A stretch of DNA of 64,000 nucleotides. Source: an uncultured delta proteobacterium. Its GTDB lineage: Bacteria > Desulfobacterota > BSN033 > UBA1163. Location: positions 3,865 through 67,864 of the forward strand of contig CAVSVC010000010.1 of the NCBI GenBank assembly GCA_963731045.1, written 5' to 3'. Under the pieces are notes generated by a model. It saw only the letters and a program-made list of their open reading frames with translations. It was not told the origin of the DNA and did no database searches. The translations under genes and the position numbers were made by a program. The first letter of the stretch is position 1, and the number at the start of each line of letters is the position of its first letter. Positions 5,592 through 62,572 of this stretch are shown here, piece by piece.

Positions 5592-6869
5592 ATGAGTCAA
5601 CTGAATCCTCTCCTTCTGACCTATCTCGCCCTCTGGTTGTTCAGGTCCGGAGGCCAGGCGTTTCTGTGCGGGCTGAACCTTTCTCACCTTCGGCGGCATG
5701 GCGCCTCCGTCCCAGAAGGATTTGAGGGGACGATCAACCCGGAGCAACTGAAGCGGATCTCGGACTACACGTCCATTTCAGACCGCTTCGGACTCGTTTC
5801 CCAGCTGGCCGAGCAGATCTTTGTCCTGTTTCTTCTGGTCACGGGTTTTTTGCCTTTTCTGAACCGCGTGATCGAACAGGGAACCGCGGAATTTGTCTTA
5901 AGGGGACTTCTGTTCTTCGGCATTCTTGGAGGATTGGAGGAGCTCTTTCAGGTTCCTTTCAGCCTGTGTGATACCTTCGTCATCGAAGCCCGTTTTGGAT
6001 TCAATCGAAGAAGTTTCCGGATGTGGCTGCTCGACTGGTTGAAAAACCTGGGCGTCGTGGTTGTTCTGGGAGGAATCCTCCTTGCCTGTCTTCTTCTCCT
6101 GGTAAGCTCTCTCGGTCAGGCCTGGTGGGTCTGGGCATGGCTCGCGGTGGGCCTCTTCGAGGTCCTGATGCTCTGGCTCTTTCCGGTAGTGATTGCCCCC
6201 CTCTTCAACAAATTCGAGCCTCTTGAAAACAGAACACTGGAGGAGCGGATCGAATCGCTCATGAAAAGGGCCGGACTGCAGATGAAAGGGGTTCTCAAGA
6301 TGGACGCCGGCAAGCGGAGCCGGCACACCAATGCCTATTTCACAGGCATTGGAAAGAGCAAACGAATCGTTCTCTTCGATACCCTCCTCGACGTTCACGA
6401 GGAAGATGAAATCCTGGCCATCCTGGCCCACGAGATCGGACACTGGAAGAAGCGCCACGTCCTCAAGCAGATTCTCCTGGCAGAGATCGTGTCCCTTGCC
6501 GCCTTCTGGTTGGCCGCTCAGTGGATCAACTGGCCGTTCCTCTACCACGCCTTCGGTTTTCAGGAACCGGTCGCCTATGTGGGATTGTTTCTTGCCGGAG
6601 CCCTTCTCGGCCCGATAGGCTTTTTCCTTCAACCTGCGGGCTCAGCCCTCTCAAGACATTTCGAAGTCGAGGCGGATGACTATGGGGCAGCTCTGATCGG
6701 GACCACGGAACCGATGGAGAGGGCTCTCCGGAGGCTGGCTTTGGAGAATCTGGCAAACCTGTCTCCCCATCCCCTCTACGCCTGGTACTATTTCGGCCAT
6801 CCCCCCATGGTCGAACGGATCGCCAGGATGAAAAGAATGGGCAGACACCTCCAAAATCGGCTAAGGTGA
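5592..6869 (+). CDS. M48 (Ste24/HtpX-like) membrane zinc metallopeptidase
   Basis: Multi-TM N-terminal part, HEIGHWKKRH (HExxH) and a downstream E...D motif; 425 aa. Confidence 0.85.
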   Translation: MSQLNPLLLTYLALWLFRSGGQAFLCGLNLSHLRRHGASVPEGFEGTINPEQLKRISDYTSISDRFGLVSQLAEQIFVLFLLVTGFLPFLNRVIEQGTAEFVLRGLLFFGILGGLEELFQVPFSLCDTFVIEARFGFNRRSFRMWLLDWLKNLGVVVVLGGILLACLLLLVSSLGQAWWVWAWLAVGLFEVLMLWLFPVVIAPLFNKFEPLENRTLEERIESLMKRAGLQMKGVLKMDAGKRSRHTNAYFTGIGKSKRIVLFDTLLDVHEEDEILAILAHEIGHWKKRHVLKQILLAEIVSLAAFWLAAQWINWPFLYHAFGFQEPVAYVGLFLAGALLGPIGFFLQPAGSALSRHFEVEADDYGAALIGTTEPMERALRRLALENLANLSPHPLYAWYYFGHPPMVERIARMKRMGRHLQNRLR

Positions 6870-6983
6870 CGATGACGAGGTCTGTTTCGGTTAGGAGGGT
6901 AACGGTTATGGGTAATTCGTTGGCCAATGGACGTAGCCGAATGGCGACACGGGCATCGTCACCGTTTCCTCTCGACGAAATCC
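6865..6983 (+). repeat. ~120-bp palindromic intergenic element, family 3, copy 1
   Basis: ggtgacgatgacgaggtctgtttcgg...ggacgtagccgaatggcgacacgggcatcgtcaccgtttcctctcgacgaaatcc aligns with 44796..44919 and with the reverse complement of 23895..24018. The ends GGTGACGATG and CATCGTCACC pair. Confidence 0.7.
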
Positions 6984-6992
6984 TTTACCCGA

Positions 6993-17229: not shown

Positions 17230-17249
17230 CGGCGCAGAAAAGTGGATGG

Positions 17250-17420
17250 CATGAACCCGGACAGGCCGGTCGGAAAGGCTTCGAGGCGAACCTTTAATCG
17301 TCCCGGCACCGTCGAACCGTTTTGCAGCCAGAAGTCACTTAAAGCGATATCCTCCCGTGTCCCCTAACCTCTCAAAAACCGCTATTCGAAGCCTTGGAGA
17401 GCGGTGCGTCCGGGCTCATT
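17250..17420. mobile_element. MITE-like element, family 2, copy 1 (~171 bp, 12-13-bp terminal inverted repeats)
   Basis: catgaacccggacaggccggtcggaaaggcttcgaggcgaacc...cgctattcgaagccttggagagcggtgcgtccgggctcat aligns along its whole length with 62400..62572. The ends CATGAACCCGGAC and GTCCGGGCTCAT are inverted. Confidence 0.65.
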
Positions 17421-22300: not shown

Positions 22301-23320
22301 TCAACAGGCGCTATGGGAGAATCTTCCCCGGCAGAGGCTACCGGCCCCGGCCAGTGTCATCCCTGCCGCGCCTCGATGAACGGCCTGATCCTGCCCTGAA
22401 AATGAGAACGACAGGCCTTTCCCGTTCGTCTGGGATCTTTTGATCATGACCTTGCAGAGGTCATACATGATTCGAAAAGGCTGGATATCGGTCAGACCGC
22501 TGACAAACCGCGCTTTTTCGAGGGCGATCTTTTCGGCGATCTCTCCCAGGTTCAGTCTCTCCAGGAGTTCCCTGTGGTAGATCTCCGTGGCAATCATCGC
22601 TTTTTGAAGATGCCCCCTCACGTCCTCCTGGATGACGCCGTTGTGGCTGAGGAGGGCACGCCTGGCCGGCAAACGCGAAAGTTTTCGAATGCTCTCACAG
22701 TAGATCTCGAGGGATTGAAAGTAATTGGGCCAGAAAACGTCCTGCTCGGGAACATAGAATCCGGTGGCGTCGCCCAAGGCCAGAGTCCGCTCCGACTGCT
22801 CGTACAGGGAGATGTGACAGGGGGAGTGACCGGGAGTGTCGAGGACCCCCCACACAATCCCTTTCCCCAGATCGATCCTGTCCCCTTCCCTTACCACGGA
22901 GTCCGGCTCAAATGAATAGCGATCGAGCTGGGCAGGCAGTTTCTTCAGCTCTCTTCTCGCCTGCATGAGCTGGGCGATGCTCAGGTCCACCAGCAGAAAT
23001 TCCTTGAGCAGTTCTCTGCTCTTTAATGTCTCTGAAGCCGCAGGGCTCGCCAGAAGCTTCAAATGGGGCCATGCGAGTTTCATGTGCGGCACACCGCCGA
23101 TGTGATCTGCGTGGGAATGGGTGAGGACGACGTAGTGAATCTGTTTCGGATCGATTCCCAATGCCTCAATTTGACTGGCGATAATGCCGAAGGTGGGACC
23201 GGTCCCTCCCTCGATGATCATCCCCACCTCTCCCATGGACAGATAGGCGGGAAACGACGGCGTTCCCAGTTGATAAAGGCTCGGGGTGATCCTGATCGGT
23301 TTGTGCATTGAATCCATCAT
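22301..23320 (-). CDS. MBL-fold metallo-hydrolase
   Basis: LTHSHADHIGG (HxHxDH), DTPGHSPCH, LGDATG and SHNG motifs; RBS AAGGTGA; 339 aa. Confidence 0.8.
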   Translation of the reverse strand: MMDSMHKPIRITPSLYQLGTPSFPAYLSMGEVGMIIEGGTGPTFGIIASQIEALGIDPKQIHYVVLTHSHADHIGGVPHMKLAWPHLKLLASPAASETLKSRELLKEFLLVDLSIAQLMQARRELKKLPAQLDRYSFEPDSVVREGDRIDLGKGIVWGVLDTPGHSPCHISLYEQSERTLALGDATGFYVPEQDVFWPNYFQSLEIYCESIRKLSRLPARRALLSHNGVIQEDVRGHLQKAMIATEIYHRELLERLNLGEIAEKIALEKARFVSGLTDIQPFRIMYDLCKVMIKRSQTNGKGLSFSFSGQDQAVHRGAAGMTLAGAGSLCRGRFSHSAC

Positions 23321-23372
23321 CTCGCTTCACCTTTCGTTTACGGCTTTCTTTCCTCCGGAACCGGGCGCACCC

Positions 23373-23405
23373 AAAAAAAAGGGCCATGGGTGTATCCCAT
23401 GGCCC
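23373..23405 (-). terminator. Intrinsic terminator of the minus-strand Phe/Tyr attenuator
   Basis: In minus sense, GGGCCATGGG-ataca-CCCATGGCCC is followed by T8. It lies 50 nt upstream of the MBL start. Confidence 0.75.
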
Positions 23406-23486
23406 TGATCTTACCTGCCGGTCCATGGGCAGCCCATGAAGGTCTGCCCACGGCCTTTTTATGAGTTCAGGCAGTGGAGGCAGACC
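23373..23486 (-). promoter_or_regulatory. Five-segment attenuator between the leader and the MBL gene
   Basis: In minus sense the segments are GGTCTGCC (23486-23479), GGCCGTGGGCAGACC (23455-23441), CTGCCCATGGACC (23432-23420), GGGCCATGGG (23405-23396) and CCCATGGCCC (23390-23381). They pair as 1:2 + 3:4 or as 2:3 + 4:5. Confidence 0.6.
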
Positions 23487-23547
23487 CGCTCCTAAAGTAA
23501 AAATACCCAAAATAAAAGAAGCGACCCTGCTCTTTTCCTGCCATCAT
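23467..23547 (-). CDS. Phe/Tyr-rich leader peptide (26 aa)
   Basis: GGGAG 23560-23556, ATG 23547. Sequence MMAGKEQGRFFYFGYFYFRSGSASTA*, with 5 Phe and 3 Tyr within 9 codons. It is below the ORF-track cutoff. Confidence 0.7.
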   Translation of the reverse strand: MMAGKEQGRFFYFGYFYFRSGSASTA

Positions 23548-23575
23548 TCTGGTTACTCCCACAACATACAGTTAC

Positions 23576-23603
23576 TTTTTAACACTTTCCCCAAAAAAGT
23601 CAA
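23576..23603 (-). promoter_or_regulatory. Candidate promoter of the minus-strand leader
   Basis: In minus sense: TTGACT (23603-23598), a 16-nt spacer, TGt then TAAAAA (23581-23576). Confidence 0.4.
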
Positions 23604-23613
23604 GAGAGACCCC

Positions 23614-23643
23614 TTGACAAGTCCCCCTGTGATTTGTTAAACA
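23614..23643 (+). promoter_or_regulatory. Candidate promoter of the trp leader
   Basis: TTGACA 23614-23619, an 18-nt spacer ending in TGt, then TAAACA 23638-23643. It sits back to back with the minus-strand -35, 10 bp away. Confidence 0.4.
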
Positions 23644-23674
23644 GCATGTAATAAGGAGTTGTAAGAGGACCGCA

Positions 23675-23755
23675 GTGGAAGATATTTTAAGATTGAAACA
23701 AGGGAACTGGTGGCGCTGGGCAAACATAGAGGAGGCTTGCCCCGTGCTGCATTAA
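23675..23755 (+). CDS. trpL: Trp-rich leader peptide (26 aa) of the trp operon
   Basis: AAGAGGA 23663-23669, GTG 23675. Sequence (M)EDILRLKQGNWWRWANIEEACPVLH*, with three Trp codons at 23708-23719. The alternative start TTG 23693 is possible. Confidence 0.7.
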   Translation: MEDILRLKQGNWWRWANIEEACPVLH

Positions 23756-23771
23756 CCGTTTGAAGTGAAAC

Positions 23772-23811
23772 AAGGCCATGGGCGGCTTCCGGGTCCCCCA
23801 TGGCCTTTTTT
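23772..23811 (+). terminator. Intrinsic terminator of the trp attenuator
   Basis: AAGGCCATGGG...CCCATGGCCTT forms an 11-bp stem, followed by a T-run (TTTTTTATTT). Confidence 0.75.
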
Positions 23812-23842
23812 ATTTCTGCCTTTTCAAAGGCAGACCGCGTTC

Positions 23843-23877
23843 AAAAAAGGCTATGGATCATTTCCATAGCCTTTTTT
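23843..23877. terminator. Second, symmetric hairpin (A6-stem-T6) downstream of the trp attenuator
   Basis: AAAAAA-GGCTATGGA-tcatt-TCCATAGCC-TTTTTT. It could terminate in either direction. Confidence 0.55.
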
Positions 23878-23894
23878 GTTTGGTTGGGAAACAA

Positions 23895-24018
23895 AGATTT
23901 CGTCCGCCGGTGACGGTGACGACGCCCGTATCGTCATTCGGTTACGTCCTTGGTCTCAAAAACTTGACGTAACCCGTTGCCCTTAACCGAAACGGGCTTC
24001 GTAACCGTAACCCTAACC
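23895..24018 (-). repeat. Palindromic intergenic element, family 3, copy 2 (inverted), inside the trpE 5' leader
   Basis: The reverse complement (ggttagggttacggttacgaagcccgtttcgg...ggacgtaaccgaatgacgatacgggcgtcgtcaccg...gacgaaatc) aligns with 6865..6983 and 44796..44919. Confidence 0.7.
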
Positions 24019-24039
24019 TGTTTTGTCGGAGGTTCGAAC

Positions 24040-25530
24040 ATGATCACCCCGTCTTTGGAAGAGTTCATCAGACTGGCCGGCCAGGGCAACCTGATTCCCG
24101 TCTTCGAGGAGATCCACTTCGACCTGGAGACACCGATCTCCGCCTTCCGGAAGATCGATGATGGAAGCAGTTCTTTTCTCCTTGAAAGCGTGGAAGGGGG
24201 AGAAAAATGGGGACGCTACAGCTTCCTGGGCTCCGGTTCGTCCCACCTCTTCCGAAGCAAAGGGAACCGATTCGAGATCCTGAAGCATGGGGAACTCCTT
24301 CGAGAAGGAGAGAACGAAGATCCCCTCAGGGCGCTGGAGGAATTCCTTGCCGTCTACCGTCCCGTCCGGCACGACAGCCTCCCCAGATTCTCCGGAGGGG
24401 CGGTGGGATACCTCGGTTACGATGTCGCACGGTCCTTCGAGAGGATTCCAACCCGTCTCCGGGAGGACATCGACCTTTATGATTCTTCCTTCATGATCAC
24501 GGATACCCTGCTCGTCTTCGACAATTTGAAGAAGAAGATCAAGGTGATCTGCAATGCCTTTCTGAACAGCCGGCAGCCCTCGGGGCCATCGATTGAGGCG
24601 GCCTATCAGGAGGCACAGGAAAAAATCAATTCAATCATTGCACGGCTTCGGCGGCATGATCCCCCTGTCTCCGTAAAAAAATCATCCCCTCCCGCTCCGC
24701 TACGTTCCAATTTCAGCAGGGAGGAATATATGAACGTGGTGGAAAGGGCAAAGGAGTACATTCGGGCCGGCGACATCATCCAGGTCGTGCCCTCACAGCG
24801 GTTTTCGACGGAAATTCACTGTGACCCCTTCGACATCTACCGGGCCCTTCGAAGCATCAATCCTTCCCCCTATCTTTTTTATCTGAAGATGAACGGAACG
24901 GTCCTCATGGGAAGCTCGCCGGAAGTGATGGTGCGTCTCGAAGGCAATCAGATCGAGCTCCGTCCTATCGCCGGCACCCGCAAACGGGGTACGAGCAAAG
25001 CGGAAGACCTCGCCCTGGAAGAGGACCTTCTGGCCGATGAGAAGGAGAGGGCTGAACACATCATGCTGGTGGATCTCGGTCGAAACGATGTGGGCCGTGT
25101 CTCGGAAATCGGCTCGGTCAAGGTGACCGAACTGATGGGGGTGGAGAGGTACTCTCATGTGATGCACATCGTCTCCAATGTTCAGGGAACGCTCGCCCCG
25201 GGGCTGAACGGTTTCGACGTCTTTCGGGCAACCTTTCCCGCCGGCACGGTTTCAGGCGCTCCCAAGATCCGGGCCATGGAGATCATCGAAGAGCTCGAAC
25301 CCTTCCGGCGCGGGTTTTACGCCGGAGCCGTCGGATACTTCGGCTTTCTGGGAAACATGGATACCTGTATTACGATACGCTCCATTCTCGTCAAGGATGG
25401 AAAGGCCTATGTCCAGGCGGGGGGAGGCGTTGTCGCCGATTCCGACCCGGAGAAGGAATATGAAGAGACGTTACACAAGGCCCGGGCCATTTTCAAGGCC
25501 ATCGAGCTTGCCGAGGAGGGGCTGTCATGA
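24040..25530 (+). CDS. trpE: Anthranilate synthase component I
   Basis: GGAGG 24028; [22 protein letters not shown]...; [16 protein letters not shown]; [15 protein letters not shown]; intact. Confidence 0.9.
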
Positions 25531-26108
25531 TCCTGATGATCGACAACTACGATTCCTTTACCTACAACCTGGTCCAGTACCTGGGTGAACTGGGGGCCCC
25601 GTGCGAGGTGTACCGGAACGACCGGATCAGCCTTGAGGCCATCCGGGAGAGAGCGCCGGGGTATCTCATTATTTCCCCCGGGCCCTGCACCCCAAAAGAA
25701 GCGGGGATCTCTGAGGGGGCCATCCTGGAGATGTCCGGGAGAGTACCCATTCTCGGGGTGTGTCTGGGTCATCAGTGCATCGGGTCTGCCTTCGGAGGAA
25801 AGGTCATCCGGGCAAAGCGTTTGATGCATGGGAAGAGCTCCCTCATCCATCATGACGGGAAGACGATTTTCAAAGGGCTTCCCAACCCCTTCCAGGCCAT
25901 CCGGTACCATTCTCTTCTCGTTGAACGCGAAAGTCTGCCCGATTGCCTCGAAGTCTCTGCAGAGACGGAGGAAGGGGAGATCATGGGCCTGAGGCATAAG
26001 AGGTTTTCGATGGAAGGGGTCCAGTTCCATCCCGAATCCATCCTGACCCAGAATGGAAAAAACCTGCTGAAAAATTTCTTAGAACTGAGGAGGAACGGTC
26101 ATGCTTAA
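25527..26108 (+). CDS. trpG: Anthranilate synthase component II (glutamine amidotransferase)
   Basis: [23 protein letters not shown]...GVCLGHQ...QFHPES; ATGA overlap with trpE. Confidence 0.9.
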
Positions 26109-27123
26109 GAGATTCATCGCCAGAGTGGTGGAGGGGAAAGACCTGAGCGAGGAGGAGTCCGGAGAGGCCATGGGCCTCATCATGGAAGGGGAGGTCCCTC
26201 CCACACAGATCGCTTCATTCATCACCGCCTTACGGATGAAGGGCGAGACCGTTCAGGAGATTACCGGATTCGCCCGTGCCATGCGCGCCAGGGCCTTCCG
26301 CATTCGGGCCAAAGAAGGAGAAGAGGTCGTGGATACCTGCGGAACCGGCGGGGATGGACTGGGAACCTTCAACATCTCCACTGCCGTGGCATTCGTGGCT
26401 GCCGGCGGGGGATGTACCGTTGCCAAACACCATAACAGGTCCGTATCCAGTCAATGCGGAAGCGCGGATGTGCTGGAGGCCCTGGGGATCGATCACGCCC
26501 TTCCTCCTGAAAGAGCGGAGAGATGTCTGAAGGAGAATGGGTTGGCCTTCCTGTTTGCCCCCACCTTCCATCCTGCAACCAAGAATGCAGCGATCCCCCG
26601 GAAAGAGATCGGGATCCGCACGATCTTCAATCTCCTCGGTCCCCTTACCAACCCTGCCGGAGCGACCATTCATCTCGCAGGTCTCTACCGGGAGGATCTG
26701 TTGCAACCCATCGCCGAAGTGCTGAGAAACCTGGGAAGCAGGGCAGCCTTTGTCGTGCACAGCGAGGATCACTCCGATGAAATCAGCATCACGGGCAGGA
26801 CAGCCGTTTGCCGGCTGAAGGCCGGAGCAATTTCATGCTACCAAATCGAGCCCGAAATGGCAGGACTGAAGAGGGCGAGGCTGGAGGAAATCCGGGGAGG
26901 GCCACCGGAGAAGAATGCGGAGATCCTGCTTCAAGTCCTGCAAGGGAGGCCGGGTCGCTCCCCGGGATGTCGTTCTGTTCAATGCGGCAGCGGTCTTCGT
27001 GGCATCAGAAAAAGTATCAAACCTGAAGAGATGGAGTTGAGATGGCCAGAGAATCCATTGACTCGGGCAGGGCCATGAACAAACTCGAAGCGCTCATCCG
27101 CTTTTCAAGAAGTCAGGAGGTGA
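26101..27123 (+). pseudogene. trpD: Anthranilate phosphoribosyltransferase; C-terminal ~60 codons frameshifted, end uncertain
   Basis: VDTCGTGGDGLGTFNISTA, KHHNRSVSSQCGSADVLEALG, then DVVLFNAAAV...ARESIDSGRAMNKLEALI in other frames. Confidence 0.8.
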
Positions 27124-27126
27124 AAG

Positions 27127-27950
27127 ATGTTTCTCGAAAGAATTGTGGAAATAAAGAAGAGGGAGGTCCGGGAGAGAAAGAACCCGTCCCGGCAGAGGGA
27201 GATGGAGGAAAGAATTTCTTCCCTTCCCCTTCCGCGGAATTTCATGGATGCGATCTCACAACACTCTCCTGTAGCCGTCATCGCTGAGATAAAAAGGGCT
27301 TCACCTTCGTTGGGGATGATCAATGAAGAACGTCGATATCCTTCACTTGGCCCGGGAGTACGAGAAAGGAGGAGCCTCGGCTATTTCCGTTCTTACGGAA
27401 GAGAACTTCTTCAAGGGGGATCTTGCTTATCTTCATCGCGTAAAAGAAGAAGTTTCTCTCCCGGTCCTCCAGAAGGATTTCATGATCGACCCCTTTCAGA
27501 TCTATGAGGGAAGGGTTTCAGGGGCGGATGCGGTTCTTCTCATCGCCGCCCTCCTCGACCGGGAAGCAACTCAGGGATTTTGCCGATCTGACAAGGAGTC
27601 TCAATATGGTTCCATTGGTTGAAGTCCATAACGAAGAAGACCTGGAGAAGACATCCACCCTCGATCTTCCCCTCATCGGGATCAACAACCGTGACCTGAA
27701 GACTTTTGAGGTGGACCTCGGGACCACTCTTCGTCTCAAGAGAGCGATTCCCTCAAATACAAGCGTGATCAGTGAGAGCGGGATAAAGAACCCCGGCGAT
27801 GTTAGACTTCTCAGGGAGGCAGGAATCGACGGAATCCTGGTCGGAGAGACCCTGATGCGGAGCCCGGATCCCGCTCAAAAGATCAGGGAACTGCTGGCCG
27901 GAACTCAGACATATGACTACAGCTCTTCTATTGCTGCACACAGGTTATGA
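27127..27950 (+). pseudogene. trpC: Indole-3-glycerol-phosphate synthase, 2 frameshifts; no fused TrpF domain
   Basis: AVIAEIKRASPS, GASAISVLTEENFFKG, PVLQKDFMIDPFQIYE, VEVHNEEDL and INNRDLKTFEV lie across three frames. Confidence 0.8.
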
Positions 27951-28111: not shown

Positions 28112-29299
28112 ATGAAACAGCCGGATAAGAAAGGATATTTCGGAGGATTTGGAGGGAAGTTCGTTCCCGAAACCCTCATGGCTCCGATCAGGGAATTGGA
28201 ATCGTCTTACCTTTCTGCACGAAGGGATCCCCGGTTTCGGAAGGAGTTGAACTTCTATTTGAAGGATTATGCCGGAAGGCCCACCCCCCTCTATTTTGCA
28301 GAAAGACTGACCGGAGAGTTGAAAGGGCCCAGGATTTACCTCAAGCGCGAAGATCTCACCCACACGGGCGCTCATAAGATCAACAACACCCTCGGCCAGG
28401 CCTTGCTGGCGAAAAGAATGGGAAAGAGGAGGATCATCGCGGAAACAGGGGCGGGGCAACACGGGGTGGCCGCCGCCACCGCGGCGGCGCTGCTGGGACT
28501 GACCTGTGCCGTTTACATGGGAGAGGAGGATATCCGGAGACAGTCGCTGAATGTCTTCCGGATGAAACTCCTCGGGGCCGAAGTGATCCCGGTCTCCTCC
28601 GGCAGCAAAACATTGAAAGACGCCACCAACGAGGCCATCCGGGACTGGGTGACACATGTCCGGGAGTCCTACTATCTCATCGGGTCGGTGGTCGGACCTC
28701 ACCCCTATCCCATGATGGTCAGGGATTTTCAATCGGTGATCGGGAAAGAAGCCAGGAGACAGATCCTCGAAAAGGAGGGCCGTCTTCCCGACGTTCTGCT
28801 GGCATGCGTGGGAGGAGGGAGCAATGCCATAGGCCTTTTCCACCCTTTCTTCAAGGACAATGTCCGCTTTGTCGGTGTCGAGGCCGCCGGCCTCGGAATG
28901 GACTCGGGCAAACAGGCTGCCTCGCTCAATGCAGGGTCTGTGGGAACGCTTCATGGAAGCATGAGTTACATTCTTCAGAGTCGCTTCGGCAATATTTCGG
29001 AAACCTACTCCTTTGCCCCCGGTCTGGACTATCCGGGCGTAGGACCGGAACACGCCCACTATAAAGAAGTTGGAAGGGCGGAGTATGTCACCGTGACGGA
29101 CGAGGAAGCCCTGGAAGCCTTTCACCTTCTGACCCGTACCGAAGGCATTCTTCCGGCCCTGGAAAGCGCCCATGCACTGGCTTATGCGAGGAAGATGGCT
29201 CCTTCTCTCGGGAGCGACCGGATTGTGATCGTCAACCTGTCAGGCCGGGGTGACAAAGACGTCCACTCGGTGGCCGCGAGAATCGGAGTTGAATTATGA
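28112..29299 (+). CDS. trpB: Tryptophan synthase beta chain
   Basis: [25 protein letters not shown] and GGGSNAIG; intact. ATG 28112 is preferred over the track's TTG 28088. Confidence 0.9.
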
Positions 29300-30091
29300 G
29301 CAGAATCGATCTCACATTTCAAAGGTTACGGAGTGAGGGCCGAACCGCCCTGGTTCCATTTATCGTCGGGGGAGATCCCTCTCTTGATGCCACAGAGGCC
29401 CTGATTCCAAGGATGGCGGAGTGCGGTGCGGATCTCATTGAAATCGGCATCCCCTTTTCCGATCCTCTCGCAGACGGGCCGGTGATTCAGGCAGCCTACC
29501 AGCGGGCCCTGCAAAAAGGGGTCAACCTGCCGGAGATATTTCGCATGGTGCAAAGGTTGAGAGGGAATCTCGACCCCCCTGGTCCTCATGGTCTATTTCA
29601 ATCCCGTTCTCCAGTATGGGTTGAAGACCTTTGCTCAGGACTGCCATCAAAATGGAATCGCGGGAGTCATCATCCCCGATCTCCCTCCGGAGGAAGCCGG
29701 GCCATGGATTCGAGAGGCCAGGCCCTTTGATCTGGATACCATCTTTCTGACGGCTCCGACCAGTTCTCGTGAGCGGATCAGATTGGTGGACAGGTGCAGC
29801 CGCGGATTTATCTACCATGTTTCAGTCACGGGCGTCACCGGGACCCGGGGGGAGCTGCCTGTCGAGCTCGAAGGGGCGGTCAAACAGATAAGAGAATACA
29901 GCAAGAAACCCGTTGCCGTCGGCTTCGGGATTTCCACCCCGGCCCAGGCCAAAGCGGTGAGCCTTTTCGCAGACGGCGTGATCGTAGGAAGCGCGATTGT
30001 GAAGCTCATCGAGGAGCACCGGAATAGTCCGGACTTGATCAGGAACGTCGGTGATTTCGTATCTTCCCTGTCCCGCGGGTTGAAGGCCTGA
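29296..30091 (+). pseudogene. trpA: Tryptophan synthase alpha chain, one frameshift near 29575
   Basis: ALVPFIVGGDPSL...IEIGIPFSDPLADGPVIQ then MVYFNPV...GVTGTR...GFGIS. Confidence 0.85.
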
Positions 30092-44795: not shown

Positions 44796-44919
44796 GGGTT
44801 ACGGTAACGGTTACGACGCCCGTTTCGTTAAAAGTCAAAGGGTTACGTATAGCTCCTAAGACGAAAGACGTTGCCGAATGACGATACGGGCATCGAAACC
44901 CCTGCCGTTGGACGAAACC
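44796..44919 (+). repeat. Palindromic intergenic element, family 3, copy 3
   Basis: gggttacggtaacggttacgacgcccgtttcg...gacgttgccgaatgacgatacgggcatcg...gacgaaacc. It ends 20 nt before the GH15 start. Confidence 0.7.
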
Positions 44920-44938
44920 TTTTTCTAAGGAGAAGAAC

Positions 44939-62282: not shown

Positions 62283-62399
62283 TTTCAGTAAGAAGTTTGA
62301 GGACCATTTCGCTTGAGGTTGAAGGCACGTGTGCTCCTGCCCCCTCCTCCGACCTTACGCCTCAAACATCTTCATCCGGATGTTGCGAAGAGTAATTCA

Positions 62400-62572
62400 C
62401 ATGGACCTGGACAGGCCGGTCGGAAAGACATTGAGGCGAACCATCTTAGCGTATCAGCCCCATCGCGCCGTCCTGTTGTCAGAAGTTACTTGGAGCAATT
62501 TCCTCCGGTTTCCGTCAAGTCTACGAAAGACCGCCATTCGAAGTCTTGGAGAGCGGTTTGTTCGGGTCCATG
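62400..62572. mobile_element. MITE-like element, family 2, copy 2
   Basis: catggacctggacaggccggtcggaaagacattgaggcgaacc...ccgccattcgaagtcttggagagcggtttgttcgggtccatg. It has the same order and ends as 17250..17420. Confidence 0.65.

What the first reader, a model, noticed from the sequence alone, without database searches (positions are those of the whole stretch)
23663..23877. WWRW leader peptide, tandem terminators and an inserted palindromic repeat upstream of trpE
AAGAGGA (23663-23669) and GTG 23675 open a 26-codon ORF, (M)EDILRLKQGNWWRWANIEEACPVLH*, with TAA at 23753-23755. Three of four consecutive codons (23708-23719) are Trp, close to the E. coli trpL pattern (..KGWWRTS). A terminator follows: AAGGCCATGGG...CCCATGGCCTT plus T6 (23772-23811). 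Candidate alternative pairings found by eye are weaker than in the aro leader. One is GGGCAA (23718-23723) with TTGCCC (23737-23742). The other is GGAGGCTTGCCC (23731-23742) with GGGCGGCTTCC (23780-23790), giving 9 Watson-Crick pairs, 2 GU pairs and one bulge; it invades the base of the terminator stem. Three features are unusual. A second, symmetric A6-hairpin-T6 element lies at 23843-23877. A small hairpin lies at 23816-23833. A 124-bp palindromic repeat copy (23895-24018) sits between the attenuator and the trpE RBS, so the trpE 5' leader is about 365 nt long.
Basis: partly seen in the sequence, partly recalled or inferred. Interest (0 to 1): 0.7.

Follow-up and report, generated by a model that had tools for sequence, protein, structure and literature searches.

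The report
Trp leader with two coupled terminators
Upstream of trpE lies a conserved tryptophan-sensing leader peptide switch that carries two terminators in a row, apparently wired so that one stalled ribosome disarms both, a layout that none of my searches found described.

Summary
It is a real ribosome-mediated Trp attenuator. The promoter, SD, GNWW(R/C)W mini-ORF, antiterminator segment, terminator T1, small hairpin and second terminator T2 are conserved in seven relatives (TrpE 72-84% identical). The same plan recurs in nine more distant loci. The 2:3 antiterminator is the best fold once a ribosome is placed on the Trp codons, and it covaries.

The "odd" second A6-hairpin-T6 is part of the device. 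In several relatives its U-tract abuts the trpE RBS, so every trpE transcript must pass it. T1's 3' arm plus U6 pairs with the A6 plus T2's 5' arm (segments 4:5; 14 bp, -20 kcal/mol). Across 17 loci 4:5 is kept as well as the terminator stems (93-96% paired). The mirror pairing 3:6 is kept less well (81%).

I infer a relay. With Trp replete, 1:2/3:4/5:6 form and there are two stops. With Trp starved, 2:3/4:5 form and there are none. This is untested experimentally.

The 124-bp repeat is a lineage-specific insertion, with two more copies in the window and none at this site in relatives. Verdict: known mechanism, new variant, not matched by any Rfam 15 family.

The parts
23614..23642 (+). Promoter-like element: TTGACA (23614-23619), a 17-nt spacer, then TG-TTAAAC (23635-23642).
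   Evidence: TTGACAA..TTTGTTA is invariant in all 8 aligned leaders. The consensus scanner did not call it because the -10 is non-canonical. The TSS is not mapped.
23663..23669 (+). Shine-Dalgarno AAGAGGA of the leader ORF.
   Evidence: Read. The aligned region is purine-rich and SD-like (mostly AGAGGA/GAGG) in the relatives.
23675..23755 (+). Leader ORF of 26 codons, (M)EDILRLKQGNWWRWANIEEACPVLH*. The regulatory Trp codons lie at 23708-23719.
   Evidence: Homologous ORFs with GNWW(R/C)W occur in L082, L161, L162, L163, L001, L164 and L165.
23710..23723 (+). Segment 1. It overlaps the Trp codons and pairs with segment 2 (23737-23750).
   Evidence: MFE. The RNAalifold consensus shows the same hairpin.
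23731..23750 (+). Segment 2. Positions 23731-23742 pair with 23780-23790 to form the antiterminator. GGAGG..TGCC is invariant.
   Evidence: Masked folds. 11 pairs are 100% kept and 2 are compensatory.
23768..23811 (+). Terminator T1 (segments 3 and 4). The stem is 23772-23807 and U6 is 23806-23811.
   Evidence: -25.2 kcal/mol. 93.5% paired with 4 compensatory pairs in 17 loci.
23816..23833 (+). Small spacer hairpin CUGCCUUU-UC-AAAGGCAG, which would be enclosed by the 4:5 helix.
   Evidence: 3 compensatory pairs and 79% paired in the clade; absent in L163 and in the distant lineages.
23842..23878 (+). Terminator T2 (segments 5 and 6). A6 is 23843-23848, the stem core is GGCUAUGGA/UCCAUAGCC, and U6 is 23872-23877 followed by GUUU.
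   Evidence: -23.2 kcal/mol. 95.8% paired with 8 compensatory pairs in 17 loci.
23798..23856 (+). Proposed 4:5 relay helix. 23798-23811 (T1 3' arm plus U6) pairs with 23843-23856 (A6 plus T2 5' arm), 14 bp including one G-U.
   Evidence: (I3). Mirror control 3:6.
23893..24018 (+). Dispersed imperfect-palindrome repeat of about 125 bp, inserted between T2 and the trpE RBS.
   Evidence: Other copies lie at 44797-44922 (-) at 78% and 6852-6985 (-) at 73%. It is absent at this site in relatives and absent from the 160 loci then held, L001-L160.
24028..24032 (+). trpE RBS GGAGG.
   Evidence: In relatives the equivalent RBS directly follows T2.
24040..25530 (+). trpE (anthranilate synthase component I), the first gene of trpE-G-D-C-B-A.
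   Evidence: TIGR00564 at 587 bits, above its cut-off.

Best explanation
This is a ribosome-mediated (leader-peptide) transcription attenuator of the trpEGDCBA operon, built as a six-segment relay with two intrinsic terminators.

One transcript starts at the conserved promoter (about 23650) and encodes a 26-codon peptide with Trp at 3 of 4 codons.

Trp replete (or no translation):
- The ribosome runs to the stop codon (23753) and covers segment 2, or 1:2 forms.
- Segments 3:4 then fold into terminator T1.
- Any polymerase that escapes T1 meets T2 (5:6).

Trp starved:
- The ribosome stalls on UGG UGG CGC UGG and covers segment 1.
- Segment 2 (GGAGGCUUGCCC) pairs with the inner 5' arm and loop of T1, so T1 cannot form.
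- The now unpaired T1 3' arm and its U6 (segment 4) pair with the A6 and 5' arm of T2 (segment 5) as soon as these are made.
- T2 cannot form either, and transcription enters trpE.

A single sensing event would therefore open two gates in series. This should lower basal read-through without lowering induced expression.

Shown: the anatomy; conservation; covariation of 1:2, 2:3, T1 and T2; and universal retention of 4:5 complementarity.

Inferred: that T1 and T2 terminate, that 4:5 forms co-transcriptionally, and that read-through depends on Trp.

The 124-bp repeat is a later selfish insertion into the 5' UTR and is not part of the switch.
For: Classical attenuator:
- The leader ORF, SD, start position, Trp codons, GGAGG..UGCC segment and T1 are conserved in 7 relatives with TrpE 72-84% identical.
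- Trp-rich leaders followed by terminators occur in about 40 related loci.
- With the ribosome masked to 13 nt past the last Trp codon, and the RNA cut before segment 4, the MFE is a long-range 2:3 helix in all 10 loci tested.
- In the clade, 2:3 is 100% paired with 2 compensatory pairs.
- The window energies are balanced: 1:2 -21.9, 2:3 -22.3, T1 -25.2 kcal/mol.

T2 is part of the device:
- 17 loci have two terminators by a uniform finder.
- These include 4 of 4 loci fetched blind to their architecture.
- T2 is 95.8% paired with 8 compensatory pairs.
- In L082, L161, L162, L163, L012 and L167 the U-tract of T2 abuts the trpE RBS, leaving no room for a promoter.

The relay:
- The 4:5 duplex is -14.6 to -23.2 kcal/mol in all 17 loci, against shuffle means of -5.5 to -13.5.
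- On the 17-sequence alignment 4:5 is 93.1% paired, against 39-60% in slid registers. 15 cells are changed on both sides, a count that 0 of 500 shuffles reach.
- The equivalent 11 pairs of 4:5 are 95.5% paired, against 81.0% for the mirror pairing 3:6.
- 4:5 is stronger than 3:6 in 7 of 9 lineages, p=0.039.
- Own-genome 4:5 beats cross-genome combinations, p about 0.02.
Against: - There are no experimental data: no 3' ends and no Trp response.
- Thermodynamically, T1 plus T2 beats 2:3 plus 4:5 even with the ribosome masked (-67.2 against about -50 kcal/mol). The ON state therefore depends on kinetic trapping, as in classical attenuators.
- The covariation for 4:5 rests on few independent events, because all stems are variants of GGCC-NN-GG. 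Lineage permutation was only borderline with 6 lineages (59/720; 75/720).
- 4:5 complementarity follows automatically if T1 and T2 are similar. Only the 4:5 versus 3:6 asymmetry separates selection from shared ancestry.
- Within the close clade, 4:5 shows no compensatory change.
- About 24 related Trp leaders work with a single terminator, so T2 is dispensable.
- trpD, trpC and trpA in this window carry frame changes, so this copy of the operon, or its assembly, may be defective.
Confidence: 0.6

Rival explanations
1. This is a classical four-segment Trp attenuator using T1 only. T2 is an independent, uncoupled element: a fail-safe or bidirectional terminator, or an insulator against antisense transcription. 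trpE would then be expressed from whatever leaks through T2. The 4:5 complementarity is a by-product of T2 having arisen by duplication of T1.
For: - About 24 related leaders have one terminator only.
- T2 is symmetric (A6/U6) and could terminate in both directions.
- T1 and T2 stems are similar in every genome, so 4:5 complementarity is expected from similarity alone.
- The permutation tests are only borderline.
Against: - A strong constitutive terminator (16 bp plus U6) placed directly before the RBS would cut expression in both states with no regulatory gain. Yet it is conserved with 8 compensatory pairs across distant lineages.
- There is no convergent gene to insulate against.
- 4:5 is kept at 95.5% while the mirror 3:6 falls to 81%.
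- The T2 substitutions relative to T1 are of the G-U-tolerated kind for 4:5 only.
Confidence: 0.25
2. This is a his-type chain in which only the last hairpin (T2) is the working terminator. The 3:4 hairpin would be merely the intermediate 'C:D' helix, perhaps a pause site, and its U-run would be incidental.
For: - The his leader uses AB/CD/EF versus BC/DE, with only EF followed by uridines (PMC10989985, read).
- In L163, L012 and L170 the U-tract of T1 is interrupted while that of T2 is perfect.
Against: - In the window and most relatives T1 is a canonical terminator: 15 bp, -25 kcal/mol, then U6 AUUU.
- Related single-terminator leaders use the T1-equivalent hairpin as their only terminator.
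Confidence: 0.08
3. The leader is a stand-alone small RNA or small-protein gene closed by a double terminator, as with the rnTrpL/peTrpL products of Sinorhizobium. trpE would have its own promoter downstream, for example inside the inserted repeat.
For: - Attenuator-derived sRNA and peptide with trans functions are documented (abstracts of PMC6614838 and PMC7298713, listed).
- In the window, 160 nt separate T2 from trpE.
Against: - In L082, L161, L162, L163 and L012 the trpE RBS follows T2 within a few bases, so no separate promoter is possible.
- No promoter-like site was found in 23000-24500.
- A trans role would add to attenuation, not replace it.
Confidence: 0.05

Closest known systems
E. 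coli/Salmonella trp operon attenuator (trpL, Rfam Trp_leader RF00513)
   Same: It has a short SD-led ORF with adjacent Trp codons (WWRW here; E. coli [14 protein letters not shown], from my own knowledge). It has 1:2, 2:3 and 3:4 alternative helices, with 3:4 an intrinsic terminator. The stop codon is placed so that a terminating ribosome masks segment 2.
   Different: There is no detectable sequence or structure homology. No Rfam hit appears at gathering threshold or at E<=10. The peptide is longer and uses a GTG start. A second terminator is linked through 4:5. The host is an uncultured Syntrophorhabdus-related deltaproteobacterium.
his operon leader of enterobacteria (AB/CD/EF versus BC/DE chain; Johnston et al. 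1980, as described in PMC10989985)
   Same: It is a six-segment relay in which the ribosome position at the 5' end is passed down a chain of mutually exclusive helices to a distal terminator.
   Different: In his, only the last hairpin is followed by uridines. Here the middle hairpin is itself a full terminator, giving two termination checkpoints. The sensed amino acid and the sequence also differ.
Tandem attenuators of Salmonella mgtCBR (PMC3641672)
   Same: There is more than one attenuation checkpoint in one leader.
   Different: mgtCBR uses two separate short ORFs (abstract). Here a single ORF and a single signal control two terminators.
Sinorhizobium trpE(G) attenuator giving rnTrpL/peTrpL (PMC6614838, PMC7298713)
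   Same: It is a leader-peptide Trp attenuator upstream of trpE outside the enterobacteria. The terminated leader RNA could have a function of its own.
   Different: No evidence here for trans action; a second terminator is not among the features given in those papers' abstracts, which I did not read further.
REP/MITE-like intergenic palindromic repeats
   Same: The 23893-24018 element is about 125 bp, an imperfect palindrome, intergenic, and present in at least 3 diverged copies in either orientation.
   Different: No target-site duplication or terminal inverted repeats were established. The family was not found in any related locus.

Membership tests
Ribosome-mediated (leader-peptide) amino-acid attenuator, Trp type | Short translatable ORF (SD plus start) in the 5' leader of the biosynthetic operon | tested here: met
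   SD at 23663-69 and GTG at 23675, 26 codons. The start position is conserved in 8 leaders. trpE follows.
Ribosome-mediated (leader-peptide) amino-acid attenuator, Trp type | Clustered codons for the cognate amino acid | tested here: met
   WW-R-W at 23708-23719. Only 4 such sites occur in six frames of 64 kb. The cluster is conserved as WW(R/C)W or WWW in relatives.
Ribosome-mediated (leader-peptide) amino-acid attenuator, Trp type | Intrinsic terminator between the leader ORF and the first structural gene | tested here: met
   T1 at 23772-23811, -25.2 kcal/mol plus U6. It is conserved and covaries.
Ribosome-mediated (leader-peptide) amino-acid attenuator, Trp type | Antiterminator mutually exclusive with the terminator, freed by a ribosome stalled at the regulatory codons and masked by a ribosome at the stop codon | tested here: met
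   2:3 is the MFE under a ribosome mask in 10 of 10 loci. It is 100% paired with 2 compensatory pairs. The stop at 23753 lies 3 nt after segment 2 and 15 nt (23756-23770) before the T1 stem.
Ribosome-mediated (leader-peptide) amino-acid attenuator, Trp type | Trp-dependent termination or read-through in vivo or in vitro | not testable with these tools
   Needs Term-seq, reporters or in vitro transcription.
Rfam Trp_leader (RF00513) | Match to the family covariance model | tested here: not met
   No hit at gathering threshold in the window or in 14 related loci. It is not among the 22 sub-threshold hits at E<=10.
Six-segment relay attenuator (his-leader type) | Three successive hairpins in the terminating state, with two alternative hairpins bridging them | tested here: met
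   1:2, 3:4 and 5:6 appear in the MFE and alifold. 2:3 and 4:5 are complementary and conserved. Actual formation of 4:5 is inferred.
Six-segment relay attenuator (his-leader type) | Only the last hairpin is a terminator | tested here: not met
   The middle hairpin (T1) also has a U6 tract and passes the terminator scans.
Tandem attenuators (mgtCBR type) | Two leader ORFs, each controlling its own structure | tested here: not met
   There is one conserved leader ORF. ORFs listed between T1 and T2 start inside the T1 stem and have no SD.
Dispersed intergenic palindromic repeat (REP/MITE-like), for 23893-24018 | Several diverged copies at unrelated intergenic sites, and absent from the orthologous site in relatives | tested here: met
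   Three copies at 73-78% identity. The site is empty in L082, L161, L162 and L163.
Dispersed intergenic palindromic repeat (REP/MITE-like), for 23893-24018 | Terminal inverted repeats and target-site duplication (MITE) or a REP-associated transposase | tested here: inconclusive
   The alignment of 3 copies defines the core but not clean ends. The fold is not better than shuffles (z = -1.6).

The most novel reading that the evidence does not exclude
A previously undescribed class of leader-peptide attenuator, the 'double-gate relay'. Two complete intrinsic terminators in series are both opened by one ribosome stall through a chain of alternative helices (2:3, then 4:5). In 4:5 the U-tract of the first terminator pairs with an A-tract that precedes the second. 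The design is conserved upstream of trp operons in the loci recovered here. These are Syntrophorhabdus-related, Syntrophales, Syntrophobacterales and 'delta proteobacterium' MAGs, plus possibly one Armatimonadota MAG. It is not matched by any Rfam 15 family.
Probability: 0.55. Interest if true: 0.65.

Novelty: new variant of a known kind. Interest (0 to 1): 0.55.

Why it matters
Leader-peptide attenuation is a textbook mechanism, yet nearly all detailed knowledge comes from enterobacteria and a few other groups.

- If the relay is real, a single sensing event can be multiplied over two termination checkpoints. That is a simple way to get tight basal repression with full induction.
- It would explain why a 'bidirectional-looking' A-tract/hairpin/U-tract sits inside a 5' leader.
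- It would provide a compact design for synthetic biology.
- The 17 aligned examples could seed a new RNA family for annotating trp operons in the Syntrophorhabdus-, Syntrophales- and Syntrophobacterales-related genomes sampled here. No Rfam 15 family matched any of the leaders tested.
- The repeat insertion shows that the stretch between the last terminator and the RBS tolerates large structured insertions. Different insertions at the same place are seen in L165 and L046.

Tried and rejected
- Rfam at gathering and at permissive thresholds on the window and on 14 related loci. This gave only sub-threshold, terminator-driven hits such as STnc390 and CsrC, and nothing usable.
- The sigma-70 consensus scan found no promoter. 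The conserved TTGACA-N17-TTAAAC was found only by alignment.
- Exact look-up of the window's TrpE and of P0001 to name the source genome.
- GGCCATGGG as a genome-wide repeat. It is over-represented (54 against 24 expected with one mismatch), but exact copies in hairpin form occur only in T1 and in the divergent leader's terminator. I rejected it as an explanation for the similarity of T1 and T2.
- T2 as a repeated element. It has only one copy in the window.
- Lineage permutation of 4:5 energies was not significant with 6 lineages (75/720; 59/720). It reached 38/5040 only after adding L068 with hand-defined segments. With 9 automatically segmented lineages it gave p about 0.02.
- L128 was flagged as two-terminator by the automatic finder. 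Its second hairpin is weak (-11.2) and was not judged a convincing terminator, so I treat it as a single-terminator leader.
- MAFFT places L012/L167 one column out of register for 4:5 and misaligns T1 of L117. The alignment-based counts are therefore slightly conservative.
- Literature searches for tandem or double terminators in leader-peptide attenuators, and for Trp attenuation in Syntrophorhabdus or Geobacter, found no description. The library lacks most subscription-journal papers, so earlier comparative surveys cannot be excluded. From memory, these include Vitreschak 2004 and Merino, Jensen and Yanofsky 2008.

Full report
OBSERVATION

- SD AAGAGGA lies at 23663-69 and GTG at 23675.
- The 26-codon ORF is (M)EDILRLKQGNWWRWANIEEACPVLH, with TAA at 23753-55.
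- Trp codons lie at 23708, 23711 and 23717.
- T1 is an 11+4-bp hairpin followed by U6 (23772-23811), at -25.2 kcal/mol.
- The small hairpin lies at 23816-33.
- T2 is a perfect 16-bp A6-hairpin-U6 (23842-78), at -23.2 kcal/mol.
- trpE starts at 24040 (TIGR00564, 587 bits). It heads trpE-G-D-C-B-A.

Only four sites in all six frames of the window have at least 3 Trp in 4 codons. The 396-nt leader folds with z = -5.2.

IT IS A CONSERVED ATTENUATOR

TrpE-anchored searches retrieved relatives. Homologous leaders are present in seven of them.
- L082 (82% TrpE identity), L161 (84%), L162 (82%) and L163 (78%) carry the leader upstream of trpE.
- L001 (72%, a Syntrophorhabdus MAG), L164 and L165 (74%) carry it upstream of a trpD-like gene that precedes trpE.
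- These were read.

The 8-way alignment shows these as invariant or nearly so:
- TTGACAA-N16/17-TTTGTTA (a promoter the consensus scan missed);
- the start codon position (the SD region is purine-rich but not invariant);
- TGG TGG YGC TGG;
- GGAGG..TGCC (segment 2);
- both T1 arms;
- T2.

RNAalifold recovers 1:2, T1, the small hairpin and T2.

More distant genomes (TrpE 51-60% identical) also carry Trp-rich mini-ORFs followed by terminators upstream of trpE. No Rfam 15 family matches the window or 14 related loci.

ANTITERMINATOR

I masked the RNA to 13 nt past the last Trp codon and cut it just before segment 4. An equivalent long-range 2:3 helix is the MFE in all ten loci tested, with quite different sequences. 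In the clade its 11 pairs are 100% kept, and two change on both sides.

The energies are balanced: 1:2 -21.9, 2:3 -22.3, T1 -25.2 kcal/mol. The stop codon lies 3 nt after segment 2 and 15 nt before the T1 stem. A terminating ribosome therefore masks segment 2 but not T1. This is the classical logic, and I put it at about 0.9.

THE SECOND TERMINATOR

T2 is not an oddity of this genome.
- A uniform finder calls two terminators after the leader in 17 loci. These are the 8 clade members plus L012, L167, L046, L032, L035, L168, L169, L170 and L117.
- L068 is a further case by eye.
- About 24 leaders have one terminator.
- Four loci chosen only by TrpE similarity and contig length all turned out to be two-terminator leaders.
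- T2 is 95.8% paired with 8 compensatory pairs. T1 is 93.5% paired with 4.
- In L082, L161, L162, L163, L012 and L167 the U-tract of T2 runs straight into the trpE RBS. There is no room for a promoter, so every trpE transcript must read through both terminators.

COUPLING

The repeat finder reported that 23798-23811 (T1 3' arm plus U6) is complementary to 23843-23856 (A6 plus T2 5' arm). This is 14 contiguous pairs including one G-U, at -20.1 kcal/mol. With the enclosed small hairpin it is -28.3 kcal/mol.

The same 4:5 complementarity exists in all 17 loci.
- The duplex energy is -14.6 to -23.2 kcal/mol, against shuffle means of -5.5 to -13.5.
- On the 17-sequence alignment, 4:5 is 93.1% paired, against 39-60% in slid registers.
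- It has 4 pairs and 15 cells changed on both sides, and 0 of 500 shuffles reach that cell count.

Similar T1 and T2 stems would give 4:5 complementarity automatically, so I tested the mirror pairing 3:6.
- 3:6 is 81.0% paired, against 95.5% for the equivalent 11 pairs of 4:5.
- 3:6 is weaker in 14 of 17 loci and in 7 of 9 lineages, p = 0.039.
- In the clade, T2's GGCUAUGG against T1's GGCCAUGG gives G-U in 4:5 but C-A in 3:6.
- Own-genome 4:5 combinations beat cross-genome ones. The p value is about 0.02 with 9 automatically segmented lineages, but only 0.08-0.10 with 6.

4:5 is on average weaker (-20.3) than T1 and T2, as a default-OFF switch requires.

MODEL

This is a six-segment relay.
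- OFF: 1:2, 3:4 (T1) and 5:6 (T2) form.
- ON: 2:3 and 4:5 form.

The chain principle is that of the his leader, AB/CD/EF versus BC/DE (PMC10989985). Here, however, the middle hairpin is itself a terminator. One stalled ribosome would then open two gates, which should square down the leak.

The A6 that makes T2 look symmetric would pair with the U6 of T1. The small hairpin has 3 compensatory pairs in the clade and is absent in L163 and in distant lineages. It would shorten the 4:5 loop.

Caveats:
- None of this has been tested experimentally.
- The ON state is about 17 kcal/mol less stable than T1 plus T2 and must be kinetically trapped.
- Independent covariation events are few.
- Single-terminator relatives show that T2 is dispensable.

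I put the relay at about 0.6.

THE REPEAT

23893-24018 has two diverged reverse-oriented copies, at 44797-44922 (78%) and 6852-6985 (73%). It has no copy in the 160 loci then held, L001-L160. It is missing between T2 and the RBS in L082, L161, L162 and L163. It is therefore a lineage-specific insertion into the 5' UTR. Unrelated insertions occupy the same position in L165 and L046. Its fold is not better than shuffles (z = -1.6).

NOVELTY

The mechanism class is textbook. My literature searches found no description of a single-ORF attenuator with two coupled terminators. The nearest cases are the his chain and the two-ORF mgtCBR tandem attenuators (PMC3641672). I rate it a new variant of a known kind, with interest 0.55.

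Noticed in passing
window 23372-23603, - strand: A divergently transcribed second leader. The mini-ORF at 23562..23467 (-) is MGVTRMMAGKEQGRFFYFGYFYFRSGSASTA*, with 8 Phe/Tyr in 9 codons. It is followed by alternative CCAUGG-type hairpins and the terminator AGGGCCATGGG-ataca-CCCATGGCCCT plus T8 (23406-23372). It lies upstream of a metallo-beta-lactamase-fold gene (23320..22301, -). Its -35 (TTGACT, 23603-23598) sits back-to-back with the trp promoter.
   Followed up: partly
window 26101-27950 and 29296-30091: Compared with L163 proteins, trpD changes frame twice (about 26955 and 27028) and trpC twice (about 27328 and 27575). trpA is split over two overlapping ORFs. trpE, trpG and trpB are intact. 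The breaks are not at long homopolymers. They could be assembly errors or decay of one of two trp operons.
   Followed up: partly
window 44797-44922 (-) and 6852-6985 (-): Two more copies of the roughly 125-bp imperfect-palindrome repeat found upstream of trpE. Both are in short intergenic gaps and in the opposite orientation.
   Followed up: partly
window 23613-23640; alignment A2 columns 5-31: The -35 (CTTGACAAGT) and the -10 region (ATTTGTTAA) form a conserved inverted repeat across the promoter. RNAalifold drew it as a helix, with 9 pairs kept in 8 sequences. Because it lies upstream of the likely TSS, it may be a protein operator rather than RNA structure.
   Followed up: no
L162 and L164 (both GCA_040960625.1): One genome carries two trp operons, trpE-G-D-C and trpD'-trpE-G-D-C-F. 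Each has its own two-terminator Trp leader.
   Followed up: no
L164 1675-1753; L165 1476-1532: Leader variants. In L164 a frame change gives NWWCWEKKWWRSA*, with a second WW inside segment 2. In L165 the ORF stops three codons after the Trp cluster (MEKIFITRQGNWWRWEKK*).
   Followed up: no
L165 1690-1840; L046 2840-2935: Unrelated structured or palindromic insertions sit at the same place as the window's repeat, between T2 and the downstream RBS. In L046 the insertion is followed by a partial third copy of the T2 3' arm (GCACGGCCTTTTTC).
   Followed up: no
window 17237-17419 and 62387-62571: Two blocks of 56 and 46 nt are repeated 45.15 kb apart at 80-83% identity.
   Followed up: no
window 23731-23735 and equivalents in L012, L046, L035: An SD-like GGAGG, preceded by AUA, is invariant inside the leader ORF (segment 2), even in distant lineages: AUAGAGGAGG, AUAGGAGGGG, AUACGAGGAGG. 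It pairs with CUUCC in the T1 loop. Whether it also acts as an internal ribosome pause site is open.
   Followed up: no
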